The translations under genes were made by a program, and so were the position numbers. From Candidatus Moraniibacteriota bacterium (lineage in GTDB: Bacteria; Patescibacteriota; Minisyncoccia; Moranbacterales; GWC2-37-73), in assembly GCA_013336225.1 (NCBI GenBank), contig JAAXUC010000004.1, forward strand, positions 32,421 through 96,420: a stretch of 64,000 nucleotides of DNA. The letters run 5' to 3'. Positions 3,152 through 34,069 of this stretch are shown here, piece by piece (positions within the stretch are counted from its first letter, which is position 1; every line of letters begins with the position of its first letter). The notes beneath the pieces were generated by a model. It had not been told where the DNA came from, ran no database searches, and saw only the letters and a list, made by a program, of their open reading frames with translations.

Positions 3152-3811
3152 ATGTTGAATTATATTTTGCCGCCAATCATAATTGTTATCAGCATTTCAA
3201 TTTTGATAATGTTTCTTTTTCGCAAGGCTGCGCAAATTCCAGCGGGGGAGTTTGCCGTTGATGAGGACAATGGAAGAAATCATGAAAAAAATGCCACCAA
3301 GATGATGTCAGGGCTTGGGCAATTCGGCTTGAAAATCTTGGAAAGATTAATGCATCATTCGAAACTGCTTTCACTCAAATTTCACAATGTGAGCAATGTG
3401 TGGTTTCAGACAATTCGCGAAAAAAGAAAGCAAAGCGCGCAATTGCAAAAGGACAGGCAAGCTCAGCAGGAGGAGCAAGTAGCATTTTCTCGAAAGAGCA
3501 ATCTCAATGTTGATGTGCAAGCCGACAGCCTTGTTTTGCAAGAAAGGCAAACATTGAGGCCAATGGTGCGATCAACCATGACAATGCCGCAAAAGAATAA
3601 TGCCAAAGAAAAGAATCAGTTGGAGGACACTTTGATAAAAAGAATCGCCATCAATCCTAAGGATATTGAAGCTTATGAGCGATTAGGGGATTATTATCTG
3701 GAAAGTGAGAATTTTGGCGATTCATTGGAATGCTTTAAGCAAGTGCTGAAATTGAGCCCAGCTCATCACAAAGCCAGGCTGCGAATTAGAAGACTTGAAA
3801 AATTGAAATAG
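3152..3811 (+). CDS. hypothetical membrane-anchored protein with C-terminal TPR-like helix pair
   Basis: N-terminal TM helix (ILPPIIIVISISILIMFLF), Q/K-rich middle, C-terminal AYERLGDYYLESENFGDSLECFKQVLKLSP TPR-like region. Confidence 0.4.
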   Translation: MLNYILPPIIIVISISILIMFLFRKAAQIPAGEFAVDEDNGRNHEKNATKMMSGLGQFGLKILERLMHHSKLLSLKFHNVSNVWFQTIREKRKQSAQLQKDRQAQQEEQVAFSRKSNLNVDVQADSLVLQERQTLRPMVRSTMTMPQKNNAKEKNQLEDTLIKRIAINPKDIEAYERLGDYYLESENFGDSLECFKQVLKLSPAHHKARLRIRRLEKLK

Positions 3812-3834
3812 ATAGTATAGAATAAAAAGATATT

Positions 3835-3907
3835 GCCACCCTAGCTCAACGGTAGAGCTACTGTTTTGTAAACAGTAGGTTATCGGTTCAAATCCGGTGG
3901 GTGGCTC
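3835..3907 (+). tRNA. tRNA-Thr (anticodon UGU)
   Basis: Manual cloverleaf: acceptor GCCACCC/GGGTGGC, D-stem GCTC/GAGC, anticodon stem ACTGT/ACAGT with loop TTTGTAA, T-loop TTCAAAT. Confidence 0.85.
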
Positions 3908-4020
3908 ATAAATGGAAAATTTCGAATTATGAATTTTGAATTTCGAATGAATTGTTGATGTTTTAAACATTTTGTCATTGGAAATTTTTTAAAAATTAAA
4001 AATTGGAAATTGAAAATTTG
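3908..4020. repeat. AT-rich intergenic repeat module (cgaattatgaattttgaatttcgaat ... ttttaaacatt)
   Basis: The cgaattatgaattttgaatttcgaat block is shared with 60212-60245; the spacer between the two tRNAs also contains aaaatt/gaaatt repeats. Confidence 0.5.
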
Positions 4021-22543: not shown

Positions 22544-25483
22544 ATGCAATTCAAGAAAGTAGATGCAAGAAAAAAATATTCAGAAATGGAGAAAGAAATA
22601 ATTCAATTTTGGAAAGATGATGGAACTTTCCAAAAATCCATTGAGCAAAAAAAAAATAATAAATATTTTAGTTTTTATGATGGTCCACCATTTATTACTG
22701 GTGTTCCACATTATGGAACATTGTTATCCTCTATCGTGAAGGATGCTGTTCCTAGATATTGGACAATGAAGGGATATCGTGTTGAGCGTCGATGGGGATG
22801 GGACTGTCATGGTCTTCCAGCTGAAAATATGGTGGAGAAGAAATTGGGAATCAAAAATAAACGTGAAATTGAGGAAAAAGTTGGTATTGCTACCTTTGTC
22901 GAGGAATGCATTAAGGAAACATCTCAAATTGCCTCTGAATGGGAAACTGTTATTGATAGAGTTGGTCGCTGGGTGGAGTTTAAAAATGCATACAAGACGA
23001 TGGATAAGAATTATATGGAATCCGTATGGTGGGCATTTTCGCAGCTTCACAAAAAAGGATTGATTTATGAAGATGTGAGAGTATCGCTATATTGTCCTAG
23101 ATGTTCAACGCCTTTATCAAATTTTGAAATTGCGATGGATAATAGCTATGAGATGGATAGTGATCCTTCAGTATATGTAAAAATGAAGATAAATGGTCAA
23201 GAAAATTCATATTTCTTGGTTTGGACAACAACTCCATGGACACTACTTGCTAATGTGGCCTTGGCTGTTGGCGGCGATATTGACTATGTTAAAGTTAGAT
23301 ATAATGATAAAAATGGCAATCCTGAATTTTTTATACTAGCTAAGAATGTATATGAGAAAAGAAGAGACGATTTTTTCCCTGGTGTTAAGAATCTTGGGCC
23401 AGATGAAGTTCCTCCAGTTGCATCAGAAATAGTTGAAGAATTTAAGGGCAATGATTTATTGATTAAGGAGTATGAATCAATATTCCCACATGAAATCGAA
23501 AACGGATATAAAGTAATTGCGGCAGATTTTGTTACAACTGATGATGGTTCGGGGATTGTGCATATCGCTCCAGCATTTGGAGAGGATGATTTTCAAGTTA
23601 GAAAGTCCAATGATTTACCAATAATCATGAATGTTAATGAAGAAGGTCAATTTACTGATGGACTATGGAGTGGACAGAAAGTTTGGGATGCTAATAATGA
23701 GATAGTTAAATGGCTCAAGGAAAACAATATACTTTTTAAGCGCGAACAGATTACACATAGTTACCCCCATTGTCATAGGTGTCATACAAAGCTTATTTAC
23801 AAAGCACAACCAGCTTGGTATGTGAATGTTTCAAAAATTCGTAAAGATTTGATTGCGGAAAACGAAAAAATAAATTGGTTTCCTGAATTTTTAAAACATG
23901 GTCGTTTTCAAAATGGTATTGAAGGTGCTCCAGATTGGAACATTTCTCGTGATCGTTATTTTGGAACAGCAATTCCAGTTTGGAAATGTGATGAATGTGA
24001 TGAAATGAAAGTTTTTGGGTCCTATGAAGAATTGAAAAATGCCTCTGGTATTGAGCTTGACGACTATCATCGTCCAAAGGTTGACGATGTTACTTTTGCT
24101 TGTGAAAAATGTCACGGTAAAATGAAGAGAATACCGCAAGTTTTTGATTCTTGGATTGAATCAGGCTCAATGCCGTTTGCTCAATTTCATTATCCATTTG
24201 AAAATAAAGAGGTTTTTGAAAAGAGTTTTCCTACGGACTTTATTTCAGAATATATTGCCCAAACAAGAGCTTGGTTTTATGTGCTGCACGTTCTTTCTGT
24301 GGGAATTTTTGGAAAAATAAGTTTCAAAAATGTTGTAACAACAGGAACAATTGCTGGAAATGATGGAAAAAAGATGTCAAAATCACTGGGGAATTATACG
24401 CTGCCCGATGTCGTTTTAGAGCAATACAGCGCTGATGCACTTCGACTTTATCTTTTGTCTTCACCGCTACTCAATGCTCAAAATATTAGTTTTTCAGAGA
24501 AATCCATACAAGATATTCAAAGAAAGGTATTGTCAACGCTTTGGAACAGCTATGCTTTCTTTACTCTCTATGCTGATGTTGATAAGTGGACGCCAAAAAA
24601 TAATGCTGGTTCTCCAGCCGATTCTGATAATCTTTTGGATCTTTGGATCGTGTCTGAGCTAAACAAGCTTATTAGAGAGGTTGATACTAATATGGAAGCA
24701 TACGAATTAGTAAAAGCAATCAGACCCTTTGAGAATTTTGTTGATAACTTATCAAACTGGTATATTCGTCGAAGTCGTAAACGTTTTTGGCGAAGTGAGA
24801 ATGATGATGATAAAGGCAATGCGTATCAAACCTTGCACTATGTGTTAGTTACTCTTTCAAAAATAATGGCGCCATTTGCACCATTTATATCTGAAGAGAT
24901 TTATAAGAATTTAACCGGATTGGAATCTGTTCACTTGGAAGATTTTCCTATTGCTGATGCAAAAAGAATAGATGAGGAACTGAACAACAATATGAGTGAT
25001 TTGCGTGAAATTATAACAATAGGTTTGCAAGATCGCGCAAAAAACAAAATTAAGGTTAGACAACCGTTGAGTGGAGTTTTTCTTGGTCAGAAATATAGTA
25101 AAGTCTTCAATGAAACTATAAACAAGCCAGAGTGGAGTATTATTTTAACAGAAGAGTTAAATGTGAAAGGTGCAACACTTGGAACCGAAACGGAAACTGT
25201 AGCAATTGATTCAAATATTACTGCAGAGCTTAAGCTTGAGGGTCAGGCAAGGGAAATCGTTCGTTATATCCAAGAAATGCGTAAGGAGGCTGGTTATGAA
25301 GTTGATAACCATATTATTGTGGGTTATTCCGGGGTAGAGGAAGTCTTTAATGAATTTGGAGATCTTATATCTAGGGAAATATTAGCGGATAAAATACAAT
25401 CTAATAATTTGCCCGAATATGACTTACAAAAAGAGTTCACATTTGATGAGAAAGTGTTTTCAATTACAATAAAAAAACTGTAA
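22544..25483 (+). CDS. ileS: isoleucyl-tRNA synthetase
   Basis: Class I HIGH-region variant PHYGT, KMSKS (KKMSKSLGN), CP1 editing domain and Zn-binding C-terminus; 979 aa. Confidence 0.95.
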   Translation: MQFKKVDARKKYSEMEKEIIQFWKDDGTFQKSIEQKKNNKYFSFYDGPPFITGVPHYGTLLSSIVKDAVPRYWTMKGYRVERRWGWDCHGLPAENMVEKKLGIKNKREIEEKVGIATFVEECIKETSQIASEWETVIDRVGRWVEFKNAYKTMDKNYMESVWWAFSQLHKKGLIYEDVRVSLYCPRCSTPLSNFEIAMDNSYEMDSDPSVYVKMKINGQENSYFLVWTTTPWTLLANVALAVGGDIDYVKVRYNDKNGNPEFFILAKNVYEKRRDDFFPGVKNLGPDEVPPVASEIVEEFKGNDLLIKEYESIFPHEIENGYKVIAADFVTTDDGSGIVHIAPAFGEDDFQVRKSNDLPIIMNVNEEGQFTDGLWSGQKVWDANNEIVKWLKENNILFKREQITHSYPHCHRCHTKLIYKAQPAWYVNVSKIRKDLIAENEKINWFPEFLKHGRFQNGIEGAPDWNISRDRYFGTAIPVWKCDECDEMKVFGSYEELKNASGIELDDYHRPKVDDVTFACEKCHGKMKRIPQVFDSWIESGSMPFAQFHYPFENKEVFEKSFPTDFISEYIAQTRAWFYVLHVLSVGIFGKISFKNVVTTGTIAGNDGKKMSKSLGNYTLPDVVLEQYSADALRLYLLSSPLLNAQNISFSEKSIQDIQRKVLSTLWNSYAFFTLYADVDKWTPKNNAGSPADSDNLLDLWIVSELNKLIREVDTNMEAYELVKAIRPFENFVDNLSNWYIRRSRKRFWRSENDDDKGNAYQTLHYVLVTLSKIMAPFAPFISEEIYKNLTGLESVHLEDFPIADAKRIDEELNNNMSDLREIITIGLQDRAKNKIKVRQPLSGVFLGQKYSKVFNETINKPEWSIILTEELNVKGATLGTETETVAIDSNITAELKLEGQAREIVRYIQEMRKEAGYEVDNHIIVGYSGVEEVFNEFGDLISREILADKIQSNNLPEYDLQKEFTFDEKVFSITIKKL

Positions 25484-25526
25484 ATGTGCATATAGGAGCA
25501 ATCTTTAATGATTATAACCTCGTCTT

Positions 25527-25558
25527 AAAAAGTAGCCACTAAGTGGCTACTTTTTTTT
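25527..25558 (+). terminator. rho-independent terminator (aaaaagtagccac-taa-gtggctacttttttttt)
   Basis: Perfect 11-bp stem plus T9 after ileS. Confidence 0.7.
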
Positions 25559-25608
25559 GCGCCTTTTGGGGCGTTGATGTATGTCATTATGGGATATATT
25601 ATCATTAC

Positions 25609-25672
25609 TTGACATTAATTAGCGATAGCAATAGAATAAGATCATATTAAAGGTTAACTTATAGGTTAACTA
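25609..25672 (+). promoter_or_regulatory. promoter (TTGACA -17- TAGAAT) followed by a tandem GGTTAACT palindromic pair (candidate operator) upstream of the HTH-XRE gene
   Basis: -35 at 25609-25614, -10 at 25632-25637; ggttaact at 25652-25659 and 25664-25671 (GTTAAC is self-complementary). Confidence 0.5.
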
Positions 25673-25678
25673 CTATGT

Positions 25679-26707
25679 ATGCTTATTGAATCAAAAATTA
25701 TTGGTATAAATATTAAAAAGCAAAGGCTTTTGAATAAGATGTCACAAGTTGATGTTGGAAATCTTTTAAGTACTACAAAATCTTATATATGTAGCTTGGA
25801 GCGTGGTAATAGGAACCCTTCTTTGAAAACTTTAAAAAAAATAGCACTTATCTTCAATGTACCCGTAGAAATTCTTTTGAGGGGTAATGATATAGCTGAT
25901 TCAAAATATCAAAAGATAAGGGATGATAAATTTCAGCAATTTGAGAAGAAGATAAAAAATTGGAATATTACTTCACAGAAAAAATGGTGCAATTTTTTCA
26001 TCGATGAAGAAAGTATGTTTTTCAATAAAAATAGAATTAATCAGATAAAGACTATAGTGAAAAGATATGCTGATAATAAAAACTTATCAGTTATAGATTC
26101 GTCATGTGGAACTGGAAGACTTACGGAATTACTTGCAAAAGATGGCTTTAAAAAAATATATGGAATTGATGCCAATCCATATGTTGTAGAGATAGCAAGA
26201 GAGCAAGCAATACAAAAAGCATTAATGATAAACTATGATATATCTATTCCGCCAAGTTTTGAAAAAAAAGTATTTGATGTGGTTTTTAACATAGGAACAT
26301 CGATAGGGTATTTGCAAAGTGAGGAGGATAATTTTGAGAATATCAGAAGAATAAGTTGTTTAGTCAGTAGGGGTGGAAAAATAATAATTGAGGCAGTTAA
26401 TCCTATTGGGATATTGCGTAATTTTAGTTCAAGCGAAACACTTAAATTGGATGGAAAGAAGCGATCATATCAACGTTTTTTTGATGTAAGGAGTTCAACA
26501 AGTATTGAAAATGTTATTGATACTTATGATAATAAAAAACAAATTGAATATTTTAGCAGTATTCGATTATTTTTTCCCCACGAATTAATATCTATTTTTT
26601 TGAATAGTGGGTTTATTTTAGTTGATCTGCTTGATAATAATTTAACCAGGAAAAATACCGTTAATTCACCTAGGCTATGGTATATTTTTCAGAAAAAAAA
26701 TGTTTAA
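25679..26707 (+). CDS. HTH-XRE (Cro/C1-type) DNA-binding domain fused to a class I SAM-dependent methyltransferase domain
   Basis: N-terminus QVDVGNLLSTTKSYICSLERGNRNPSLKTLKKIALIFNVPVEILL = XRE HTH; C-terminal motif I VIDSSCGTGRLT, post-I GIDANP, motif II FDVVFN. Confidence 0.7.
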   Translation: MLIESKIIGINIKKQRLLNKMSQVDVGNLLSTTKSYICSLERGNRNPSLKTLKKIALIFNVPVEILLRGNDIADSKYQKIRDDKFQQFEKKIKNWNITSQKKWCNFFIDEESMFFNKNRINQIKTIVKRYADNKNLSVIDSSCGTGRLTELLAKDGFKKIYGIDANPYVVEIAREQAIQKALMINYDISIPPSFEKKVFDVVFNIGTSIGYLQSEEDNFENIRRISCLVSRGGKIIIEAVNPIGILRNFSSSETLKLDGKKRSYQRFFDVRSSTSIENVIDTYDNKKQIEYFSSIRLFFPHELISIFLNSGFILVDLLDNNLTRKNTVNSPRLWYIFQKKNV

Positions 26708-27797
26708 TTTTATTGGTAAAATGCAATTTCATCAGAATAAAATAAATTCTCTCCTTGAGGATAGAATTGAAAATTCACTAACTACTGTCTTTATTGATCT
26801 GGTTAGCGGTGTTTGTAATCATAAGTGTGTGTTTTGTGATGGAAATTTTAATCCAATAAAAAAGCTAATTTTTTCCAAGAGTAAGTTGCTTGAAATAGCT
26901 AATGATCTTGGTGATATGAATGTTGATTCCGTGATTATGGTTGGCGAGGGTGGAGAATCATTATTGAATCCCAATTTTTGTTTTTTTTCAAAGAAATTGT
27001 TGGATAAAAAAATTCATCTTGGAATGTATACGAACGGTGGCATGTTGAATAAGAAAAATCTCGGTGTTATTTCAAGGTTTGATTTTATTAGAATTTCTTT
27101 GGACTCTGGATCATCGATAACTCATCAGCAAGTGCATGGGTATGAGGATAGAGATGATTTTAATAAGATATTTGAATCAATTGAATATTTAAGAAAAAGA
27201 AGCAAAATACAAATAGGATCATCATTCTTGCTATTACCACAGAACGTAGATGATTTATATGAGGCTGCAAAGAGATTAAAGGAGGCTGGTGCGAATTATA
27301 TAGAGGTTAGGCCAGCATATTTAAGGGATTACGGCTTTGATTTAAAGGCTTTTAAATCGATAAAGGATCGTTTCTTATACCAATTGGATAAAATGGACGT
27401 CCTAAATGATGATAGCTTTAAGGTGATTATTAATAATCAGTTAAAGGAGATAATTAAAAATAAAAAAACAATTCGTGGTGATGTTACAAGGTTGAAAAGA
27501 TCAAGAAATTGTTTAACTTGTAGGTTGAGATTAGTTGTGAGTCCAACGGGATGTTATATTTGTCCACCAAATAGAAGTAAAGAAGATTTTCGCATAGGTG
27601 ATATTTGGAATAATCCTTTACGTAGCATTTGGAATAATAGGGAACATTTGGATAAGATTAATAAAAAATGTGATTTAAAATGTCCTTACCATAAGCAAAA
27701 TAATTTTTTAATTAAATTAAAGAAAAATAATTTAATTTTTGATGATAAGTGCTTGCTGCCAGCTGGCAAATTAATTACTCAGAAAAATTTTCTATAA
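26700..27797 (+). CDS. radical SAM enzyme with C-terminal SPASM/twitch-like Cys-rich domain
   Basis: CX3CX2C (VSGVCNHKCVFCDG); C-terminal CLTCRLRL...GCYICPP...GDIWNNPLRSIWNN...CDLKCPYH resembles SPASM auxiliary-cluster motifs; overlaps the upstream gene by 8 nt. Confidence 0.8.
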   Translation: MFNFIGKMQFHQNKINSLLEDRIENSLTTVFIDLVSGVCNHKCVFCDGNFNPIKKLIFSKSKLLEIANDLGDMNVDSVIMVGEGGESLLNPNFCFFSKKLLDKKIHLGMYTNGGMLNKKNLGVISRFDFIRISLDSGSSITHQQVHGYEDRDDFNKIFESIEYLRKRSKIQIGSSFLLLPQNVDDLYEAAKRLKEAGANYIEVRPAYLRDYGFDLKAFKSIKDRFLYQLDKMDVLNDDSFKVIINNQLKEIIKNKKTIRGDVTRLKRSRNCLTCRLRLVVSPTGCYICPPNRSKEDFRIGDIWNNPLRSIWNNREHLDKINKKCDLKCPYHKQNNFLIKLKKNNLIFDDKCLLPAGKLITQKNFL

Positions 27798-27801
27798 AAA
27801 T

Positions 27802-28899
27802 ATGATAAAACCTATAAACTTTACAAAATATTATAAAGAAATTTTATCAGAATTGATGCTAGCATTTAGCGAGTTTATTTTAAGTGGGCAATATATCGGA
27901 GGTAAATTGGTGGAAAAATTTGAAGATAAAGTTAAAAAATATTTGGGTGCTAAACATGCAATAGGATGTAAGAGCGGAACACATGCTCTTCAGCTTGCGC
28001 TTTTAGCTGCTGGTGTTGAGAAAGGTGATGAAGTTATTACGGTTGCTAATACATATTACGCAACGGTATATGCAATTACTGCTGTAGGAGCAACGCCAAT
28101 TTTTTGTGATATTTTACCAGAAAATGGGCAAATTGATCATAATAAAATTGAAGCTAAAATTACTAAAAAAACAAAGGTTATTTTGCCAGTTCATTTGTAT
28201 GGGATACCTGTTAATTTGGGGGAAATTAGAAAAATTTGCAAAAAATATAAGTTAATATTAATTGAGGATTGTTCTCATGCATTTGGAACAAGGTTAAATG
28301 GTGAATATATAGGAAGTGATTCAGATTTTGGATGCTTTAGTATGTATCCAACAAAAAATCTCGGTGCTTTTGGTGATGCTGGATTTATAACAACAAAAAA
28401 TAAGAAATATGAAAGCAAGATTCGCGAATTGATTTATTTGACAGATGCTAAGCGGGTAAAATTTAATCCAAAAGCTATTCATGCTATGCTGGATCCTCTT
28501 CAGGCAGCCTTGCTTTTGGTAATGCTAGATAAGATGGATCAAGCACGCAAAGATAGAATTGAGAGAGCGGATGAATATAGGAAAAATCTAGAGGAATATA
28601 TCAGGATAAGTAAGGTTGGAAGTGATAGTGTTGTGAATCCTCACATGTTCCCAATTTTTATTAAAAATAGGAACAAGTTGATAAAATTTTTGGCAGATTC
28701 CTCTGTGCATGTGCAAGTTCATTATCCAACCAATCTGCATTGTCTGTCACAGTTTGGATCATACGCCAAAGGGTATCTCCCAGAAACGGAGAGGCACAAT
28801 AGAGAAGAGGTCAGTCTTTCTGTTCATCCATCTGTTTCAATATCTGAAGTTAAGAAAATATGTAAATTAATTAAGCAGTATGTCGAAATTAACAAATAG
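27802..28899 (+). CDS. DegT/DnrJ/EryC1/StrS-family PLP-dependent (sugar) aminotransferase
   Basis: Family N-terminus GGKLVEKFEDKVKKYLGAKHAIGCKSGTHALQLAL; PLP-Lys motif FSMYPTKNLGAFGDAGFI. Confidence 0.8.
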   Translation: MIKPINFTKYYKEILSELMLAFSEFILSGQYIGGKLVEKFEDKVKKYLGAKHAIGCKSGTHALQLALLAAGVEKGDEVITVANTYYATVYAITAVGATPIFCDILPENGQIDHNKIEAKITKKTKVILPVHLYGIPVNLGEIRKICKKYKLILIEDCSHAFGTRLNGEYIGSDSDFGCFSMYPTKNLGAFGDAGFITTKNKKYESKIRELIYLTDAKRVKFNPKAIHAMLDPLQAALLLVMLDKMDQARKDRIERADEYRKNLEEYIRISKVGSDSVVNPHMFPIFIKNRNKLIKFLADSSVHVQVHYPTNLHCLSQFGSYAKGYLPETERHNREEVSLSVHPSVSISEVKKICKLIKQYVEINK

Positions 28900-29884
28900 A
28901 AAGAAAATTGTTGTTTTGGTTCTTGGATTTAGGGCGCTTTCTTTTATTAAGAAGGGTTATTTAGCGTCAATTATTAAGGCTGCCGATAAAATAAAAAATG
29001 CAAAAGTTGATATTGTTTATCTTGATAATTATTCAAGAGATGGATCAGTACCATACATCATGAAAAATTATAAAAATATCGATCTATTATCTGCGACTGA
29101 AAATTATTTTTACTGTAAGGGTGTAAATGTCGGTTTGCAATTTTCATATCAAAAATATAGACCAGATTACTTTATGCTTGTAGATGCTGATAATCCATGT
29201 GAAGAGAGCGCTTATGGTAAGTTGATTGATTTTGCAAATAAAAATGCAAAAGTGGGAATTGTTCAGCCGCTAGTTAAGGGTCTAAGTGATTCAAATAGAG
29301 TATATTCATGTGGGCACGTATATGAAAATGGTATTTCATGTAGGCCATTAAGAGAAATCCCAAAAAACAAAAAAATATTATTAAATCTTCAAAGTTGTTC
29401 AATATCATCAACACTTGTCAAAACAAAGGTTTTTGAAAAATGTGGTTTGCTTGATCCTATTTTCAAGATTTATTATGAAAGTAGCGACTTATCATTCAGA
29501 GCAAGAAAAGCGGGCTTCTTGTGTGCTTGCCATGTTGAGGCTGTGTGTTTTAATGAGGGTGCAAAAGTTTCAAAAACTGATAATTTTCATGAGGGTTATT
29601 TTAGAAATAGAAACAATTTAATTTTCTGGAAAAAACATGATAATGAAAAATATGAAATTTTAAAAAAGATATATCAAGAAAGGCATAAGCAATTAAATGT
29701 AAAATTGGCTAATTTGAAATATGTCACAGACATGGAAGAGGAGAGTGAGCGAAGGGGGATTGAGGACGGCATAAAAATTACTAAAAAAATGGTTGCAGGT
29801 ATCAAGAATGAAGAGAGGATAGATAAATTTGATAAAACTGATGCTATTGTGATTCAGGAAGCATGCAAAAATAATGAAAAATAA
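28880..29884 (+). CDS. family 2 glycosyltransferase
   Basis: GT2 motifs DIVYLDNYSRDGS, DxD (LVDADN), and YESSDLSFRARKAGF (ED-DLS-R-R-AG). Confidence 0.65.
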   Translation: MSKLTNRKKIVVLVLGFRALSFIKKGYLASIIKAADKIKNAKVDIVYLDNYSRDGSVPYIMKNYKNIDLLSATENYFYCKGVNVGLQFSYQKYRPDYFMLVDADNPCEESAYGKLIDFANKNAKVGIVQPLVKGLSDSNRVYSCGHVYENGISCRPLREIPKNKKILLNLQSCSISSTLVKTKVFEKCGLLDPIFKIYYESSDLSFRARKAGFLCACHVEAVCFNEGAKVSKTDNFHEGYFRNRNNLIFWKKHDNEKYEILKKIYQERHKQLNVKLANLKYVTDMEEESERRGIEDGIKITKKMVAGIKNEERIDKFDKTDAIVIQEACKNNEK

Positions 29885-32150
29885 CATGTCAAAATCATTT
29901 CATCTTTTCTTATTGAAATTTTTCTATTCCATGTTATGCATTAAGGATTATTTCATGATGGGTTTTGAAATCAAAAAGCTTAAGAAGATAGCCAGCAAAT
30001 CAGTAGACACATTGCAATTTAATGATAAATTGAATGAAAATATCGTTGTTGGTGTGGACGAAAAAGAAGGATATTATATTGATTCAAAAAAGCCATCTTA
30101 TTACAAGAAGCACTTTAATGATTTTTTTCATAATGATTTGTATGGTAAATATAGATCAGATGAAAATATTATTTTAAGTACTGGTGCTCTTAATCAGGAT
30201 GAATTTTGTCTTCCGCGTTCGTTGAAATTTGCCATAAGCTATGCTCTTACGAGAAATTGGTATGGTTATTCTTGCAGCTTAGGTAGGGAATCAGCTCGCT
30301 TGGCTATAGCTGATCTGGAAAACCATAAAATTAATAGCAATATCTACAATGAAAATAATGTAGCATTGATACAGGGTGTTACGGCCGGATTATTTCACTT
30401 ATTATCATTTTTGAAAGAGAGAGAGGAAGATGGTAACTTCGGCATTTTGACGCATTATCCAACTTACGTGCCTTTTGCAGCAACTTGCGAAAAAATCGCA
30501 CCCACAAAAATAATAAATTTTTTTGGTGATAAAAAATTTAGCATCGAAGCGTTTAAGCGAAATATAGATAAAACAACAAAGGTGATTTTATTGCTTGGAG
30601 ATTTTAATCCATTAGGAAAACTTATGGATGTTTCTTTTGTTAATGAATTGATTGATATTTGTGATGAGAAGTCGATATATCTTATTATTGATGAGGCTGG
30701 TTCAAAATATCCGGAAAATAATTGGAATAATTTGAAAAATAGTGATTTCTTAATCAGGATGGATAGCTTATCTAAAAAAGTTTCAGTTCCTGGTATGAAA
30801 TTGGGATATTTTATTGCAAATGAGGAGATAATCTCTGAATTTTATGAGCGAGCATCAACAACCTATGGTGGCCCATCATCTTTTTTTTACATCCTACAAG
30901 AACTTGATGCAAGGTTCGATCTTTTTTTCCGCAAGGGTTTGCTTAAGATTGGATCAGGAGAGTTGGCATTATTTGATAAAAATTACAATCTAGGATTATT
31001 TTTTTTGAATATTCTCTATGGTCAATATATTAAAAATAAACATTTTTTTGAGTTAAAAATAAAACAGCATCGCAGTATCGTTATTGATAAGCTTATCAGT
31101 CATCATCCTCAATTGGTGAAAAAAATAATCATGCCAGAAACTGGTATTAATATTTTTTTGCAATTAGATGTCGATTACGGCAGTTATGAATTTTTCAGAA
31201 AATTGATAGTTGAAAAAAGGACAGCAGTTTTTCCGGGACTTTGTTCTGCTACAGATAAAGAATGCTGGATAAGAATAACATGTGGTGTTGATAAAAAAAC
31301 TTTGCAAACTGGTTTGGATAATTTGGTTGATTTTCTTAAGACTGAGTGGATCAAGAAACAAATACAAAAAGAGCCATTTTTTGAAAAATTACTTCTTGAT
31401 TTTGGTCAGTATGGGAGTTATGGTTACTTGTCATTTTTTGAACACATTTATGATGTTCAAAAAAATGGAATGAAAATATTGGATATTTTTGAGCTGAAAA
31501 CTAGAAGAAAGTTGGATCGTGATTTACTTAGGGAGGTGATATTTTGTCATGATGCTGGGAAAGTTGTGAGTGTGATAGTGTTTCGAATTATGAGAATTTT
31601 GCAACTTCAAAAAAAATATGGAAAAATCCCATTTTCAGTTTTTTCTAAATTGAGAGACGAGGATTTACTGTTTTTGCGAAAGGAAATAGTGGATTGTTTT
31701 GTTTTTACAAAAGAATATTTTTACGAAATGTTTCCATTTTTGCATGATTATTCTGAATTAATGAATTTAGATAGTGATAAATATCTTAAAGATACCGTCT
31801 TTACTGAGAAGATGCTTCAGCTTGCTCTGGATAAATATCCAAATTATGAGAAAAAAATAGAAGAAATGAAATTTATAATATTGAACAATTCCGCAAAAAT
31901 TAATATCAATAATTTAATGATTGGATATAATCCGTATATTTTCATTTTGGATTTTGCAGATAAAATTGCTGATTATAATCTTCCAGAAGAACCAACTCTG
32001 GCAAAAATAGATGAACTTTTGAGAAAAAAGAAAAAATATGTAATTAAACGATATTGTCATAATAATCGATCCATGGAAGCTATTGTCCATTGCGAGTTTA
32101 GTCATCTGTATGAGCTAATTAGGGAATCAAGAGTTTTTCATAAATGTTAA
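29874..32150 (+). CDS. fusion protein: class I/II PLP aminotransferase domain + C-terminal putative HD-type phosphohydrolase domain
   Basis: Aminotransferase PLP-Lys motif SLSKKVSVPGMKLGYFIAN (cf. SFSKxxxxxGxRxGY); C-terminal H...HDAGK (FEHIYD...VIFCHDAGKV) resembles HD-domain motifs I and II. Confidence 0.55.
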   Translation: MKNNMSKSFHLFLLKFFYSMLCIKDYFMMGFEIKKLKKIASKSVDTLQFNDKLNENIVVGVDEKEGYYIDSKKPSYYKKHFNDFFHNDLYGKYRSDENIILSTGALNQDEFCLPRSLKFAISYALTRNWYGYSCSLGRESARLAIADLENHKINSNIYNENNVALIQGVTAGLFHLLSFLKEREEDGNFGILTHYPTYVPFAATCEKIAPTKIINFFGDKKFSIEAFKRNIDKTTKVILLLGDFNPLGKLMDVSFVNELIDICDEKSIYLIIDEAGSKYPENNWNNLKNSDFLIRMDSLSKKVSVPGMKLGYFIANEEIISEFYERASTTYGGPSSFFYILQELDARFDLFFRKGLLKIGSGELALFDKNYNLGLFFLNILYGQYIKNKHFFELKIKQHRSIVIDKLISHHPQLVKKIIMPETGINIFLQLDVDYGSYEFFRKLIVEKRTAVFPGLCSATDKECWIRITCGVDKKTLQTGLDNLVDFLKTEWIKKQIQKEPFFEKLLLDFGQYGSYGYLSFFEHIYDVQKNGMKILDIFELKTRRKLDRDLLREVIFCHDAGKVVSVIVFRIMRILQLQKKYGKIPFSVFSKLRDEDLLFLRKEIVDCFVFTKEYFYEMFPFLHDYSELMNLDSDKYLKDTVFTEKMLQLALDKYPNYEKKIEEMKFIILNNSAKININNLMIGYNPYIFILDFADKIADYNLPEEPTLAKIDELLRKKKKYVIKRYCHNNRSMEAIVHCEFSHLYELIRESRVFHKC

Positions 32151-32166
32151 TATAATTTTAAAAAGT

Positions 32167-32748
32167 ATGATCAAGATGGAATATTTTATTAAAAAAATTG
32201 TTGATATATTAAGCAAAAAAGGCTTGGAAGATAAGGAAATTTCCAATATCATGCTTACTTCCAATGAAACACTTATTAATGAGATAGCTGATGTCATTTT
32301 TGATTTTATGAATCGTGGAAAAAAAATAATATACAATGTGCAAGTTGATTATTCTAAAAATGTGGAGGAGATGGTTGAGATTACAATGCATGAATGGGCT
32401 AATGAAGACATCACCTCGGAACATTTCCTTAATATCAGGGGTAAATCCGCAGAAGTGAGTGTTGAGCTTATACATTTCAATCGAAGCATCCTAAGCGATG
32501 ATGCACTTCTTGAGATGAGTGCTATGGGTTATCGTGCGGCTAATATGCAGGAATTCTTGGCATTTGGTGCGAAATATCCTGATCTGCAACGCAAATTTCC
32601 AATTGTGGGATTGGGGTCAGTTTGGCACAGTGAAGACAGTCATCTTGTTGCATATATGAGCTGGGGAGCTTCTGGCCGTTACCTCCATTTGTGGCATCTT
32701 GATCTTGTTTGGGGTGACGGTTGTCGTTTTGCTGCCGTTAAAGAATAA
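32167..32748 (+). CDS. hypothetical protein (193 aa), last gene of the AT-rich operon
   Basis: No motif recognised; distinctive HLWHLDLVWGDGC C-terminus. Confidence 0.35.
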   Translation: MIKMEYFIKKIVDILSKKGLEDKEISNIMLTSNETLINEIADVIFDFMNRGKKIIYNVQVDYSKNVEEMVEITMHEWANEDITSEHFLNIRGKSAEVSVELIHFNRSILSDDALLEMSAMGYRAANMQEFLAFGAKYPDLQRKFPIVGLGSVWHSEDSHLVAYMSWGASGRYLHLWHLDLVWGDGCRFAAVKE

Positions 32749-32838
32749 TTATTTTTAATGGCATATGAGGTTGTGGATATTCTGAAAAGGTAATATATAT
32801 TGAAAGCAGAATAAATCAAAAAGAAAGGGGGTGATGAT

Positions 32839-32985
32839 ATGCTAGATGGAAATCCTTGGGTTGGGGCAGCTATGAGTGGACACTACAATTACAAAGAAGC
32901 AGCGCCTATGTTTATATTTGCTGTAGTTATTGTTTGTGTGTTGCTTGTTATTGGTGTGGTAGTTTTTTTAAAAGAAAGAAAATAA
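32839..32985 (+). CDS. small membrane peptide (48 aa: MLDGNPWVGAAMSGHYNYKEAAPMFIFAVVIVCVLLVIGVVVFLKERK)
   Basis: Below the ORF-track cutoff. SD aaagaaagggggtga identical to the 13060 ORF leader. Single TM helix followed by KERK; hairpins follow (32990-33015 and 33079-33122). Confidence 0.5.
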   Translation: MLDGNPWVGAAMSGHYNYKEAAPMFIFAVVIVCVLLVIGVVVFLKERK

Positions 32986-33078
32986 CTATTATTATCATCT
33001 TTGATGATAATAATAAGGCAGTAGGCCCTTGTTGACAGTGATGGGTGAAAATTATTATTGCGCTGCATTTTGAAAAAT

Positions 33079-33122
33079 TGAAAACCGATATTTGGCTATT
33101 ATGCAAAATATCGGTTTTATTT
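33079..33122 (+). terminator. rho-independent terminator (gaaaaccgatattt-ggctattatgca-aaatatcggttttatttttt)
   Basis: 14-bp stem plus T-run; closes the AT-rich operon. Confidence 0.6.
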
Positions 33123-33138
33123 TTTCATATTGCATGGG

Positions 33139-33167
33139 TTGCTTTTTTTGCTGATGCTGGATATAAT
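33139..33167 (+). promoter_or_regulatory. candidate promoter (TTGCTT -17- TATAAT) for ispH
   Basis: Hexamers at 33139-33144 and 33162-33167. Confidence 0.45.
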
Positions 33168-33196
33168 TGGGCGAATAAGCAGTGTCGAAAAAAATA

Positions 33197-34069
33197 ATGA
33201 AAATTACATTAAGTGCGTATGCTGGTTTTTGCGAAGGTGTGGAGCGGGCATATGATATTGTGGAAAAAATCGCCAAAGACCCGCTGGTAAAGCGGCCTAT
33301 TTTTGTGTTGGGCTCCTTGGTGCATAACGACGATGTGGTGCAGCGAATTGAGGACATGGGTGTCAGGAAAGTGCACGTGGAAGGTCCACTGGAAGAGTTC
33401 TTTGAGAAAATAAAAGGGGAGGTGGGAACTTTGGTCATCACGGCTCATGGCATTGGACCAAAAATATATGAGTTGGCCAAAAAATATGAAGTTGATTTGG
33501 TAGACACAACTTGTCCGCGCGTTATCAAGGTGCAAAGATTGGCCAAAGCTTTTTTTGATCGCAATACACAAATTGTGATTATTGGCGAAAGAAATCATAA
33601 GGAAGTTAAGGGAATTTATGAATGGGCCAATAAGCAAGCAATTTTCATTGAAACTGATGAAGATCTTTGTGGTTTCGATGTTGATCCAAAAAAGAAATTG
33701 GCAGTGATTTCTCAGACCACACAAGATCAGGAATTTGTCGATCGCGCAGCTGCGCAAATTTCCAAAAAATATCCGCACGCCCAAGTGGTGGATTCAATTT
33801 GCCTCACCACTCATCATCGTCAAACCGAAATCAAGCAGCTTGCCAAAGAAAATGATGTGGTAATTGCGATTGGTTCGCCTGAAAGTGCCAATTCCACGCG
33901 TCTTTGGGAAATTGCTCAAAGGGTTAATCCTTCCTCATATTTCATTCAGCGGGCGGCTGATCTTGAAAATGCTTGGTTTCTTGATTGCAAAAGTGTGGCA
34001 GTTACTGCGGGTGCAAGTACGCCAAAATGGATTATAGATGAGGTTATAAACAGATTGGAGACCTTATAG
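33197..34069 (+). CDS. ispH: 4-hydroxy-3-methylbut-2-enyl diphosphate reductase (IspH/LytB)
   Basis: MKITLSAYAGFCEGVERA (cf. MKIxLAxPRGFCAGVDRA) and conserved Cys/His positions. ATG 33197 is preferred over the GTG at 33182. Confidence 0.8.
   Translation: MKITLSAYAGFCEGVERAYDIVEKIAKDPLVKRPIFVLGSLVHNDDVVQRIEDMGVRKVHVEGPLEEFFEKIKGEVGTLVITAHGIGPKIYELAKKYEVDLVDTTCPRVIKVQRLAKAFFDRNTQIVIIGERNHKEVKGIYEWANKQAIFIETDEDLCGFDVDPKKKLAVISQTTQDQEFVDRAAAQISKKYPHAQVVDSICLTTHHRQTEIKQLAKENDVVIAIGSPESANSTRLWEIAQRVNPSSYFIQRAADLENAWFLDCKSVAVTAGASTPKWIIDEVINRLETL

What the first reader, a model, noticed from the sequence alone, without database searches (positions are those of the whole stretch)
25609..26707. XRE HTH fused to a SAM methyltransferase, with a tandem GTTAAC palindrome pair in its own promoter region
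The first gene of the AT-rich operon combines a Cro/C1-type HTH with a complete class I SAM-MTase fold (VIDSSCGTGRLT, GIDANP, FDVVFN). Between the TTGACA-17-TAGAAT promoter and the start codon lies ggttaact-tata-ggttaact (25652-25671), two self-complementary GTTAAC sites spaced about one helical turn apart. That is a typical operator arrangement for a dimeric XRE repressor. The protein may autoregulate the operon, possibly with SAM/SAH sensing through the MTase domain.
Basis: partly seen in the sequence, partly recalled or inferred. Interest (0 to 1): 0.5.

Follow-up and report, generated by a model that had tools for sequence, protein, structure and literature searches.

The report
Self-regulating HTH–methyltransferase fusion with conserved operator
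The first gene of a sugar-modification operon in a tiny Moranbacteria (CPR) bacterium fuses a DNA-binding switch to a methyl-adding enzyme, and a 20-base palindrome kept in front of every fused relative is very probably the site where the protein shuts off its own operon. This is a rare variant of a familiar kind of self-regulation.

Summary
Gene 25679-26707 encodes an XRE helix-turn-helix (aa 12-65) fused to a complete class I SAM methyltransferase. GGTTAACT-TATA-GGTTAACT (25652-25671) lies between a TTGACA-17-TAGAAT promoter and the ATG.

The palindrome is not chance. The same 20-mer (RGTTAACY-TATA-RGTTAACY) sits between the -10 and the ATG in all three other fused lineages found (35-72% identity), even though two of them head a different operon. 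It is absent upstream of two HTH-less relatives and of nine "split" relatives whose separate XRE gene has a different recognition helix.

Independently, 27 of 78 genomic sites carrying the 18-bp core have a related XRE gene just downstream. The remaining 424 kb of those loci has none.

The element is best read as one dyad operator for one XRE dimer, at about +8 to +27, giving negative autoregulation.

The methyltransferase keeps all SAM motifs and its model resembles amine N-methyltransferases (NmbA, CcbJ, TylM1). With the neighbouring DegT aminotransferase, it looks like a working pathway enzyme. SAM/SAH sensing is untested and is the weaker reading.

Verdict: a rare fusion and a new variant of a known kind, of moderate interest.

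The parts
25532..25558 (+). Intrinsic terminator of the upstream ileS gene (GTAGCCAC-TAA-GTGGCTAC followed by T8). It marks the upstream boundary of the regulatory region.
   Evidence: Read directly from the sequence. ileS is identified by Pfam. The consensus scan did not list this hairpin.
25609..25614 (+). -35 hexamer TTGACA
   Evidence: 11 of 12 match, the best in the region. TTGACA is kept in L002 and L008.
25632..25637 (+). -10 hexamer TAGAAT, 17 nt after the -35. The inferred start site is near 25644.
   Evidence: L002 has TATAAT after 17 nt and L008 has TATCAT after 16 nt. The start site itself is inferred, not measured.
25652..25671 (.). Operator: the 20-bp quasi-palindrome GGTTAACT-TATA-GGTTAACT (16 of 20 positions symmetric; core GTTAAC-N6-GTTAAC). 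It lies at about +8 to +27 and ends 7 nt before the ATG.
   Evidence: - Unique in the window.
- Conserved in L002 (4066-4085), L003 (7972-7991, a perfect palindrome) and L008 (963-982, one mismatch), while the flanking intergenic DNA is unalignable.
- Absent where the HTH is absent or has a different recognition helix.
- The same core lies upstream of related XRE genes in 27 of 78 genomic hits.
25679..26707 (+). CDS of the 342-aa HTH-methyltransferase fusion
   Evidence: The 342-aa start is supported by the 72%-identical orthologue P0002. NCBI's call starts at M21 and truncates the HTH.
25679..25888 (+). XRE/Cro-C1 type HTH domain (aa 1-70). The recognition helix is about aa 32-43, TTKSYICSLERG.
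   Evidence: Pfam HTH_3, E 1.6e-10. PDB sequence hits to C.BclI, CylR2 and SinR. AF2 predicts five helices with pLDDT 87-98. It is the only XRE-like ORF in the window.
25904..26704 (+). Class I SAM methyltransferase domain with N-terminal helices and a beta-sheet cap (aa 76-342), of the amine N-methyltransferase type
   Evidence: - Pfam.
- Motifs I-VI are retained: VIDSSCGTG 137-146, D164, D187, D200, G210-Y211 and G233 (compared with the NmbA description in PMC12719100).
- AF2 pLDDT 91.8.
- Foldseek finds CcbJ, NmbA, CypM, TylM1 and GNMT.
26700..27797 (+). Operon gene 2: radical SAM enzyme (365 aa). It overlaps gene 1 by 8 nt.
   Evidence: Pfam Radical_SAM, E 1.8e-16. NCBIfam gives only weak matches, mostly to radical SAM/SPASM maturases.
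27802..28899 (+). Operon gene 3: DegT/DnrJ/EryC1-type sugar aminotransferase
   Evidence: Pfam, E 6.5e-90. Resembles PseC, DesI and WecE.
28880..29884 (+). Operon gene 4: family-2 glycosyltransferase
   Evidence: Pfam Glycos_transf_2.
29874..32150 (+). Operon gene 5: 758-aa protein with a class I/II aminotransferase domain and a C-terminal part that is not assigned
32167..32748 (+). Operon gene 6: 193-aa protein with no family match

Best explanation
The 342-aa protein is a two-function polypeptide.

Regulatory part. Its N-terminal XRE helix-turn-helix (aa 1-70) binds, as a dimer, the single 20-bp dyad RGTTAACY-TATA-RGTTAACY. This dyad lies just downstream of the sigma-70-type promoter, at about +8 to +27 here and on the start site in the relatives. 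Binding blocks RNA polymerase and so negatively autoregulates the six-gene operon 25679-32748.

Enzymatic part. Its C-terminal domain is a catalytically competent SAM-dependent amine N-methyltransferase of the NmbA/CcbJ/TylM1 structural type. It most likely methylates an amino group made by the operon's DegT aminotransferase on a sugar-type intermediate, which the glycosyltransferase then uses.

Origin of the fusion. It probably arose from, or gave rise to, an adjacent XRE-gene plus methyltransferase-gene pair, by gain or loss of a stop codon at the position of G69.

What is shown: the architecture, the motif, its conservation, its co-variation with the HTH type, and its association with XRE genes elsewhere.

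What is inferred: DNA binding, the sign of regulation, the dimer stoichiometry, the enzyme's substrate, and any ligand control.
For: 1. Architecture. HTH_3 plus class I methyltransferase. The AF2 model has pLDDT 91.8.

2. Phylogenetic footprint. All four fused lineages carry the 20-mer between the -10 and the ATG, and the rest of the intergenic DNA does not align. The lineages are the window, L002 (72% identity), L003-L007 (35%) and L008-L010 (36%). L003 and L008 head a different operon (AMP-binding, Asn synthase, radical SAM, racemase). So the motif travels with the HTH gene, not with the pathway.

3. Negative controls.
- The HTH-less relatives L011 and L012 lack the motif.
- Nine split loci, with recognition helices ISLNTVVKIELD or IPYTTLTKIESN, also lack it (best match at least 5 mismatches).
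- Some of the split loci carry a different dyad in the same position.

4. Independent association. A scan of 185,579 species genomes for GTTAACYTATARGTTAAC gave 78 loci. 27 of them have an ORF matching an HMM built from the four fused HTHs within 1 kb, against 0 hits in the remaining 424 kb of the same loci. In 27 of 28 hits the motif is upstream. The partners are HTH_3 proteins, many of them antitoxins of Gp49 toxins, with similar recognition helices such as TKKSYISRLENG.

5. Only candidate in cis. The fusion is the only XRE-like ORF in the 64-kb window.

6. Enzyme.
- All residues that are invariant or nearly invariant across 108 family members are kept in the window protein.
- Motifs I-VI map onto NmbA.
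- Foldseek top hits are amine N-methyltransferases.
- DegT aminotransferases co-occur in three operon types.
Against: - No experiment has been done. Binding, repression and catalysis are all inferred.
- Only four fused lineages are known, so the footprint is shallow.
- The same palindrome also precedes small ArsR-type regulators in about 8 of the 78 genomic hits (three of them confirmed by Pfam). The sequence is therefore not exclusive to XRE proteins, and another factor could in principle bind it.
- Promoter usage in CPR bacteria is assumed to be sigma-70-like. In L003 the TTGACA-to-TATAAT spacing is only 12 nt, and NCBI labels that organism an archaeon.
- The P0003/P0160 operons contain no DegT. 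The methyltransferase's substrate cannot be the same everywhere, which leaves room for a non-catalytic role.
Confidence: 0.7

Rival explanations
1. Ligand-sensing regulator. The methyltransferase domain serves mainly as a SAM/SAH sensor, or an acceptor-substrate sensor, that tunes HTH binding. This is logic like that of SahR or a 'trigger enzyme', matching operon expression, including a radical SAM enzyme, to SAM supply.
For: - There is precedent for an HTH joined to a SAM/SAH-responsive module: SahR is an ArsR-family SAH-responsive regulator (PMC4239095). That its sensor domain is methyltransferase-like is my own recollection of Novichkov et al. 2014.
- The fused proteins with sequenced contexts all head operons containing a radical SAM enzyme. 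The two HTH-less operons L011 and L012 show none in the called genes.
- The HTH is joined directly to N-terminal helices (aa 75-130) whose pLDDT is lower, 70-83 for aa 71-110. In my recollection of related N-methyltransferases such as TylM1 and GNMT, the N-terminal segment closes over the active site. That gives a plausible allosteric path.
Against: - Residues outside the SAM motifs (W103, E110, R266, D269, R296, P300-H301-E302, R332, W334) are invariant between fused and stand-alone members. This argues for conserved catalysis.
- In the split loci the XRE is a separate 65-70 aa protein, so regulation does not need covalent coupling.
- No data exist on any ligand effect.
Confidence: 0.17
2. 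The palindrome acts at the RNA level. A hairpin in the short 5' leader, ending 3-9 nt before the start codon, controls translation or mRNA stability independently of the HTH.
For: The 20-mer folds as an 8-bp hairpin in the window and a 9-bp hairpin in L003. It lies inside the predicted leader. No Shine-Dalgarno sequence is visible between it and the ATG.
Against: - The hairpins are weak (-3.2 to -7.9 kcal/mol) and no more stable than shuffled sequence (z = -0.69, -0.75, -1.75 and +0.84).
- The substitutions in L002 (two A.C) and L008 (A.A in mid-stem) break pairs, and there is no compensatory change.
- No Rfam family reaches its threshold.
- In many other genomes the same 18-mer sits within or beside a TTGACA-type promoter, so at least part of it is not transcribed.
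- Its presence tracks the HTH type.
Confidence: 0.05
3. The operator is real but is bound by a different, trans-encoded regulator (for example an ArsR-type or another XRE protein). The fused HTH would then have another target or be vestigial.
For: About 8 of the 78 genomic occurrences of the palindrome lie 5-6 nt upstream of ArsR-type genes rather than XRE genes (three confirmed by Pfam).
Against: - The only feature that co-occurs with the motif across four otherwise different loci is the HTH-methyltransferase gene itself.
- No other XRE-like ORF is found in the 64-kb window.
- The HTH is well conserved, with 54 of 72 residues identical between the window and P0002. It is not decaying, unlike the remnant in L104.
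Confidence: 0.05
4. The protein is a DNA methyltransferase that recognises GTTAAC (the HpaI site) through its HTH and methylates its own promoter.
For: GTTAAC is a classical restriction-modification site. N-terminal HTH plus methyltransferase is the architecture of M.SsoII and M.Ecl18kI (PMC3978073, PMC2760811).
Against: - The domain matches small-molecule methyltransferase families (Methyltransf_11/25/31), and no DNA-methyltransferase family was reported.
- All the structural neighbours listed are small-molecule or peptide methyltransferases, with a beta-sheet cap.
- No restriction enzyme gene is adjacent.
- GTTAAC is not markedly depleted in the window.
Confidence: 0.02

Closest known systems
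Autoregulatory XRE/Cro-C1 repressors, in particular HigA-type antitoxins of Gp49 (PF05973) toxin modules and R-M controller proteins (C.BclI, C.Esp1396I)
   Same: - The same HTH family (HTH_3).
- PDB sequence hits to C.BclI (E 1.3e-6), CylR2 and SinR.
- The identical 18-bp core GTTAACYTATARGTTAAC lies in the promoters of many Gp49/XRE pairs.
- The dyad operator overlaps or follows the promoter of the regulator's own operon.
   Different: - No toxin or restriction gene is present.
- The HTH is covalently joined to a 270-aa enzyme.
- The regulated operon is biosynthetic.
M.SsoII / M.Ecl18kI type DNA methyltransferases with an N-terminal regulatory HTH
   Same: An N-terminal region of about 70 aa that binds an operator and regulates transcription, followed by a SAM-dependent methyltransferase domain (PMC3978073: residues 1-71 and 72-379; PMC2760811).
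   Different: Their catalytic domain is a cytosine-C5 DNA methyltransferase inside a restriction-modification system. Here the domain is a small-molecule amine N-methyltransferase type inside a sugar/aminotransferase operon.
SahR (ArsR-family SAH-responsive regulator of the SAM cycle)
   Same: It works like one possible reading of this protein: an HTH coupled to a SAM/SAH-binding module that controls genes linked to SAM use (PMC4239095).
   Different: - The HTH is ArsR-type, not XRE.
- The regulon is the methionine/SAM cycle.
- The sensor is not thought to be a pathway enzyme.
- Here, conservation argues for catalysis.
XRE-cupin local repressors of adjacent metabolic operons (Pseudomonas)
   Same: An XRE DNA-binding domain fused to a second domain, acting as a local inhibitor of a neighbouring metabolic gene cluster (PMC7901475, title and abstract).
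   Different: The second domain there is a cupin sensor, not an enzyme of the pathway.
Bifunctional enzyme-repressors such as BirA, PutA and NadR ('trigger enzymes'; from my own knowledge, not checked here)
   Same: One polypeptide both catalyses a step and represses its own pathway genes.
   Different: These use different DNA-binding folds and enzymes, and coupling through the ligand is demonstrated for them. Here it is only conjectured.
Amine N-methyltransferases NmbA (9RI2), CcbJ (4HGZ), CypM (7WZG), TylM1 (3PFG)
   Same: - The best PDB sequence hit is NmbA (E 8.9e-13).
- Foldseek E values are 1e-17 to 1e-13 and TM-scores (normalised to the target) are about 0.63-0.81.
- The layout is a Rossmann core plus a beta-sheet cap.
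- As with TylM1, it is associated with a DegT-type aminotransferase.
   Different: - Only 13-19% identity in the structural alignments.
- None of these enzymes carries an HTH.
- The substrate here is unknown.

Membership tests
XRE / Cro-C1 HTH (Pfam HTH_3, PF01381) | Sequence match above Pfam's gathering score, and a five-helix HTH fold | tested here: met
   41.3 bits against a cut-off of 23, covering aa 12-65 and profile positions 1-54 of 55. AF2 predicts helices 2-18, 23-29, 34-41, 49-59 and 63-68 with pLDDT 87-98.
XRE / Cro-C1 HTH autorepressors | A dyad-symmetric operator in the regulator's own promoter region, conserved with the regulator | tested here: met
   The 20-bp dyad is present in all four fused lineages, and absent when the HTH is absent or its recognition helix differs.
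XRE / Cro-C1 HTH autorepressors | Demonstrated sequence-specific DNA binding and repression | not testable with these tools
   This needs EMSA, footprinting or a reporter assay.
Class I SAM-dependent methyltransferases (Methyltransf_11/25/31) | Rossmann-like seven-strand fold with motifs I-VI, including the glycine-rich motif I and the acidic residue at the end of beta-2 | tested here: met
   - Pfam scores of 40.8, 40.3 and 39.8 bits against cut-offs of 27, 27 and 21.2.
- VIDSSCGTG, D164, D187, D200, G210-Y211 and G233 align to the NmbA motifs.
- All 14 family-wide conserved positions are kept.
- The strand order is modelled with pLDDT above 90.
NmbA (bacillithiol N-methyltransferase) | Orthology to NmbA, and bacillithiol as substrate (bacillithiol biosynthesis genes present) | tested here: inconclusive
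   It is the best PDB sequence hit, but only at E 8.9e-13 over aa 137-314 and 19% identity in the structural alignment. No bacillithiol genes were seen in the operon. The substrate cannot be tested here.
TylM1/DesVI-type sugar N,N-dimethyltransferases | Sequence family membership, and action on an NDP-amino-sugar made by a DegT-type aminotransferase | tested here: inconclusive
   Fold match at E about 1e-13 and TM (target) about 0.7, with DegT in the same operon. There is no significant sequence hit to TylM1 or DesVI. The chemistry is untested.
SahR-type SAH-responsive regulators | ArsR-family winged HTH | tested here: not met
   The HTH is HTH_3 (XRE). No ArsR, HTH_5 or HTH_20 match was found.
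M.SsoII-type regulatory DNA methyltransferases | Cytosine-C5 DNA methyltransferase catalytic domain and an adjacent restriction endonuclease gene | tested here: not met
   No DNA-methyltransferase family match was reported. The neighbouring genes are a radical SAM enzyme, an aminotransferase and a glycosyltransferase.
Type II toxin-antitoxin antitoxins (HigA-like, with Gp49 toxin) | An adjacent cognate toxin gene | tested here: not met
   No Gp49 or RelE-type ORF is next to the gene. Only the operator and the HTH type are shared.

The most novel reading that the evidence does not exclude
The fusion is a true 'trigger enzyme'. Occupancy of the N-methyltransferase active site (SAM versus SAH, or the amino-sugar acceptor) repositions the directly attached HTH. 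The enzyme would then report pathway flux to its own promoter.

This compact sensor-regulator-enzyme has been kept, with an almost unchanged 20-bp operator, in genome-reduced CPR bacteria and in an organism NCBI labels as a DPANN archaeon, in front of at least two unrelated radical-SAM-containing operons.
Probability: 0.17. Interest if true: 0.65.

Novelty: new variant of a known kind. Interest (0 to 1): 0.42.

Why it matters
CPR and DPANN organisms have very few recognisable regulators, and almost none has a known binding site. This case offers a regulator, its probable operator, its probable regulon (one operon) and a clear prediction, all testable in E. coli because the promoter is sigma-70-like.

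It also supplies a natural series of the same methyltransferase: fused, split by a single stop codon, and HTH-less. That series shows how a regulator and an enzyme become one polypeptide.

The same GTTAAC-N6-GTTAAC operator serves a widespread set of XRE antitoxins. That assigns a candidate site to many uncharacterised toxin-antitoxin modules.

If ligand coupling exists, this would be a new enzyme-repressor type. If it does not, it is an ordinary autorepressor that happens to be fused to an enzyme.

Tried and rejected
- **Shallow structure model.** AF2 with the 2-sequence alignment gave pLDDT 33.8 and was useless. It was replaced by a 108-sequence alignment.
- **Word-indexed homologue searches.** The search for homologous proteins returned only the window protein and P0002 as close relatives, and missed P0003 and P0160. 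The exhaustive representative search was needed.
- **P0010.** Its contig has no DNA available and its N-terminus has no significant HTH match. It was not counted as a fusion.
- **Genome scan for the operator.** It found no further methyltransferase fusions. It was still informative about XRE genes.
- **RNA-element reading.** Rejected as the main explanation.
- **DNA-methyltransferase / HpaI reading.** Rejected.
- **Third GGTTAACT at 37375.** It lies in coding sequence and was treated as chance.
- **The two 2-mismatch matches to GTTAAC-N6-GTTAAC (4049, 25144).** They are within chance expectation.
- **Literature search for the operator sequence.** Only irrelevant hits.
- **Search for papers on XRE-methyltransferase fusions.** None found.
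- **afdb50 fold library.** Unavailable. How common the two-domain architecture is in UniProt could not be checked structurally. Among the best 150 of 1.84 billion representatives, only this small family combines both domains.
- **Concerted G/C flank changes in the window versus L002.** Considered as evidence for oriented tandem binding, but judged compatible with chance (about 1 in 9).
Full report
**1. Observation**

- TTGACA lies at 25609-25614, followed by a 17-nt spacer and TAGAAT at 25632-25637.
- GGTTAACT (25652-25659), TATA, and GGTTAACT (25664-25671) follow.
- The ATG is at 25679, opening a 342-aa ORF whose stop codon ends at 26707.
- The promoter is the best sigma-70 match (11 of 12) in 25300-33300.

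Pfam finds HTH_3 at aa 12-65 (41.3 bits, cut-off 23). It finds class I methyltransferase families at aa 133-241 (about 40 bits).

Chance was assessed as follows.
- GGTTAACT occurs three times in the window against 0.81 expected.
- The exact GTTAAC-N6-GTTAAC arrangement is unique.
- GTTAAC itself is not over-represented, with 5 sites against 8.25 expected.
- The third GGTTAACT is inside a 405-aa ORF.

The source is a Candidatus Moranbacteria (CPR) metagenome-assembled genome. NCBI's gene call starts at M21 and removes the first helix of the HTH. The 342-aa start is supported by the orthologue.

**2. Context**

The gene opens a tightly packed six-gene operon:
- the HTH-methyltransferase;
- a radical SAM enzyme;
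- a DegT-type sugar aminotransferase;
- a family-2 glycosyltransferase;
- a 758-aa protein with a class I/II aminotransferase domain;
- a 193-aa protein with no family match.

The operon lies between ileS, whose terminator hairpin is at 25532-25558, and ispH. It forms a block of about 30% GC in a background of about 39%.

**3. Relatives**

The family is small.
- A word-indexed search of 5.8 billion proteins found only one orthologue, P0002 (72% identity).
- An exhaustive HMMER search of 1.84 billion representatives added one more full-length relative, P0003 (35% identity, labelled Nanoarchaeota by NCBI).
- That search also found a set of methyltransferase-only relatives.
- P0160, a 342-aa member of the P0004 cluster, is a fourth fused form.
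- None of the other multi-stretch or longer hits checked among the best 150 combines HTH_3 with a methyltransferase domain.

P0002 has the same synteny as the window. P0003 and P0160 head a different operon: AMP-binding enzyme, asparagine-synthase-like enzyme, radical SAM enzyme, and Asp/Glu racemase.

**4. The decisive comparison**

The 20-mer sits between the -10 and the ATG in every fused lineage.

| Lineage | 20-mer | Gap after the -10 | Gap before the ATG |
|---|---|---|---|
| Window | GGTTAACTTATAGGTTAACT | 14 nt | 7 nt |
| L002 | AGTTAACCTATAAGTTAACC | 15 nt | 3 nt |
| L003-L007 | AGTTAACTTATAAGTTAACT (perfect palindrome) | 6 nt | 9 nt |
| L008-L010 | AGTAAACTTATAAGTTAACT | 7 nt | 4 nt |

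The promoter hexamers and this 20-mer are the only recognisable similarities in the upstream regions.

The controls behave as expected for a cognate operator.
- HTH-less relatives that head a methyltransferase-NUDIX-DegT-epimerase operon (L011, L012) have no such motif.
- A metagenome scan uncovered nine 'split' loci. In these a 65-70-aa XRE gene ends in TAA and, three bases later and in the same frame, the 267-aa methyltransferase gene starts.
- The stop codon in the split loci aligns with G69 of the window protein.
- The separate XREs have different recognition helices (ISLNTVVKIELD or IPYTTLTKIESN, against TTKSYICSLERG and VSKPYISSIENG in the fusions). Their upstream regions lack the GTTAAC dyad, with at least 5 mismatches.
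- Some split loci carry another inverted repeat spanning the -10 and the ATG.

So the operator co-varies with the HTH, not with the enzyme or with the operon.

**5. Independent support**

A scan of one genome from each of 185,579 species for GTTAACYTATARGTTAAC returned 78 loci in many phyla.
- None encodes the methyltransferase.
- The sites are mostly intergenic, and many abut a TTGACA.
- With an HMM built from only the four fused HTHs, 27 of the 78 loci have a matching ORF within 1 kb (28 hits in 141 kb).
- There are no hits in the remaining 424 kb of the same loci.
- The motif is upstream in 27 of the 28 hits.

Many of these genes are the HTH_3 partners of Gp49-type toxins. Another group is an 86-aa XRE in Fibrobacteria. 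Their recognition helices resemble that of the window protein.

This shows that XRE domains of this type are recurrently paired with this dyad. There is one caution. About eight of the hits instead sit 5-6 nt before small ArsR-type genes (three confirmed by Pfam). The palindrome is therefore not exclusive to XRE proteins.

**6. How the operator should be read**

A 6-bp palindrome is too short for an HTH dimer. In all the other genomes the 18-mer occurs as one unit. The element is therefore best seen as a single dyad, with two GTTAAC half-sites 12 bp apart around a TATA centre, for one dimer.

From the promoter geometry, the operator lies at about +8 to +27 in the window and L002. It lies on the start site in L003 and L008. 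That is a repressor position.

The flanking R and Y positions vary. The window 20-mer is the exact reverse complement of the L002 20-mer. I regard this as a curiosity compatible with chance.

**7. The methyltransferase domain**

The evidence that it is a working enzyme is as follows.
- With a 108-sequence alignment, the AF2 model reaches pLDDT 91.8.
- The window protein keeps every invariant or nearly invariant family position: D140, C143, G144, G146, R147, G156, G162, D164, A173, G210, Y211, G233, R296 and E302.
- Motifs I-VI map onto those described for NmbA.
- In the eight-sequence alignment of close relatives (fused, methyltransferase-only and P0010), the invariant columns also include positions outside the SAM motifs.
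- Foldseek's best solved matches are 3D2L, CcbJ, NmbA, CypM, TylM1, KedS8 and glycine N-methyltransferases. Most of the characterised ones methylate amines, and they have a Rossmann core plus a beta-sheet cap.
- DegT aminotransferases recur next to this subfamily.

The domain therefore looks like a working N-methyltransferase of the pathway.

**8. Rival explanations**

- **RNA hairpin.** This is weak. Free energies are -3.2 to -7.9 kcal/mol and z-scores are -0.69, -0.75, -1.75 and +0.84. The substitutions in L002 and L008 break pairs. No Rfam family matches.
- **DNA methyltransferase acting on GTTAAC.** This is contradicted by the domain type and by the neighbouring genes.
- **A different trans-acting regulator.** This cannot be excluded. 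However, the only gene that always accompanies the motif is the fusion itself, and it is the only XRE-like ORF in the window.
- **SAM/SAH or substrate sensing.** This remains possible. The fused forms head radical-SAM-containing operons, and the HTH joins N-terminal helices modelled with lower confidence. It has no direct support.

**9. Evolution**

A rough neighbour-joining tree of the methyltransferase domains gives this picture.
- The window/P0002 pair sits on a long branch, about 36% identical to the rest.
- P0003 and P0160 nest among HTH-less forms.
- The split forms make one clade. It includes L104 and L105, where only a decayed HTH remnant ('LASLDDLI*') survives upstream.

The HTH-methyltransferase association is therefore old but labile. 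It appears fused, split by a single stop codon, or lost.

**10. Comparison with known systems**

The protein works like an XRE autorepressor. Its architecture recalls three known types.
- M.SsoII and M.Ecl18kI have an N-terminal HTH of about 70 aa plus a methyltransferase, but theirs is a C5 DNA methyltransferase (PMC3978073, PMC2760811).
- SahR is an SAH-responsive regulator, but it is ArsR-type (PMC4239095).
- XRE-cupin proteins are local repressors of adjacent metabolic operons (PMC7901475).

It fails the defining tests for each of those three families. It passes those for HTH_3 and for class I methyltransferases. I found no paper describing an XRE fused to a small-molecule N-methyltransferase, or describing this operator.

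**11. Verdict**

Autoregulation through the palindrome is strongly supported by comparative evidence (confidence about 0.7 for the full mechanism). SAM/SAH sensing is unsupported but not excluded (about 0.17). This is a rare fusion and a new variant of a known kind, of moderate interest (0.42).

Noticed in passing
window 25679-25741: NCBI's deposited protein (P0001, 322 aa) starts at M21. This cuts off the first helix of the HTH. The 342-aa start is conserved in the orthologue P0002.
   Followed up: yes
L092-L097, L100, L102, L103 (for example L093 296-1300): These are 'split' versions. A 65-70-aa XRE gene ends in TAA, then after 3 nt comes the ATG of a 267-aa methyltransferase in the same frame. 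The stop codon aligns with G69 of the fused window protein. One substitution could fuse or split the pair.
   Followed up: yes
L104 and L105, about 3700-3995: The methyltransferase here is 89% identical to that of split locus L093. Upstream there is only a stop-riddled remnant of the XRE gene ('...QLASLDDLI*'), which suggests the regulator is decaying.
   Followed up: partly
L013-L090 (for example L077 223-900, L042 4673-5362, L076 238-913): The 18-bp core GTTAACYTATARGTTAAC is a recurrent promoter element of Gp49 (PF05973) toxin plus HTH_3 antitoxin pairs in many phyla. It also precedes an 86-aa XRE gene in about ten Fibrobacteria genomes, often directly after a TTGACA.
   Followed up: partly
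L023 1062-1419, L030 4898-5231, L035, L038, L043, L053, L089, L090: The same palindrome, extended to TAGTTAAC-N6-GTTAACTA in most of them, lies 5-6 nt before small ArsR-type (HTH_5/HTH_20) genes in Chloroflexi, Saccharibacteria, Dormiibacterota and others. An unrelated HTH class is therefore associated with the same sequence.
   Followed up: partly
window 25652-25671 compared with L002 4066-4085: The two 20-mers are exact reverse complements of each other: G at positions 1 and 13 here, C at positions 8 and 20 there. Either there were four concerted transitions or the element was inverted. Both keep a 'direct-repeat' asymmetry.
   Followed up: partly
L003 8001-14623; L008 987-7744: The fused relatives P0003 and P0160 head a different conserved operon: AMP-binding enzyme, Asn-synthase-like amidotransferase, radical SAM enzyme and Asp/Glu racemase. 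Its product is unknown.
   Followed up: no
window 25672-25678; L002 4086-4088; L003 7992-8000; L008 983-986: Only 3-9 nt separate the operator from the start codon in all four lineages. No Shine-Dalgarno sequence is visible there.
   Followed up: no
window 29874-32150 and 32167-32748: The 758-aa protein has a class I/II aminotransferase domain (aa 99-490) and about 270 C-terminal residues with no family match. The last operon gene (193 aa) has no match in Pfam or NCBIfam.
   Followed up: no
window 26000-32000: The operon is a block of about 30% GC in a background of about 39%, between ileS and ispH. The orthologous operon in L002 sits in the same place after ileS.
   Followed up: partly
L096 492-543, L100 150-201, L102 132-183: Some split loci carry a different 17-nt inverted repeat (ATGTTAGTATAATGATG ... 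CATACTTATACTATCAT). It spans the -10 and ends at the ATG, and may be the operator of their own XRE.
   Followed up: partly
window 25532-25558: A clear ileS terminator hairpin (8-bp stem, T8 tail) was not listed by the terminator scan.
   Followed up: no
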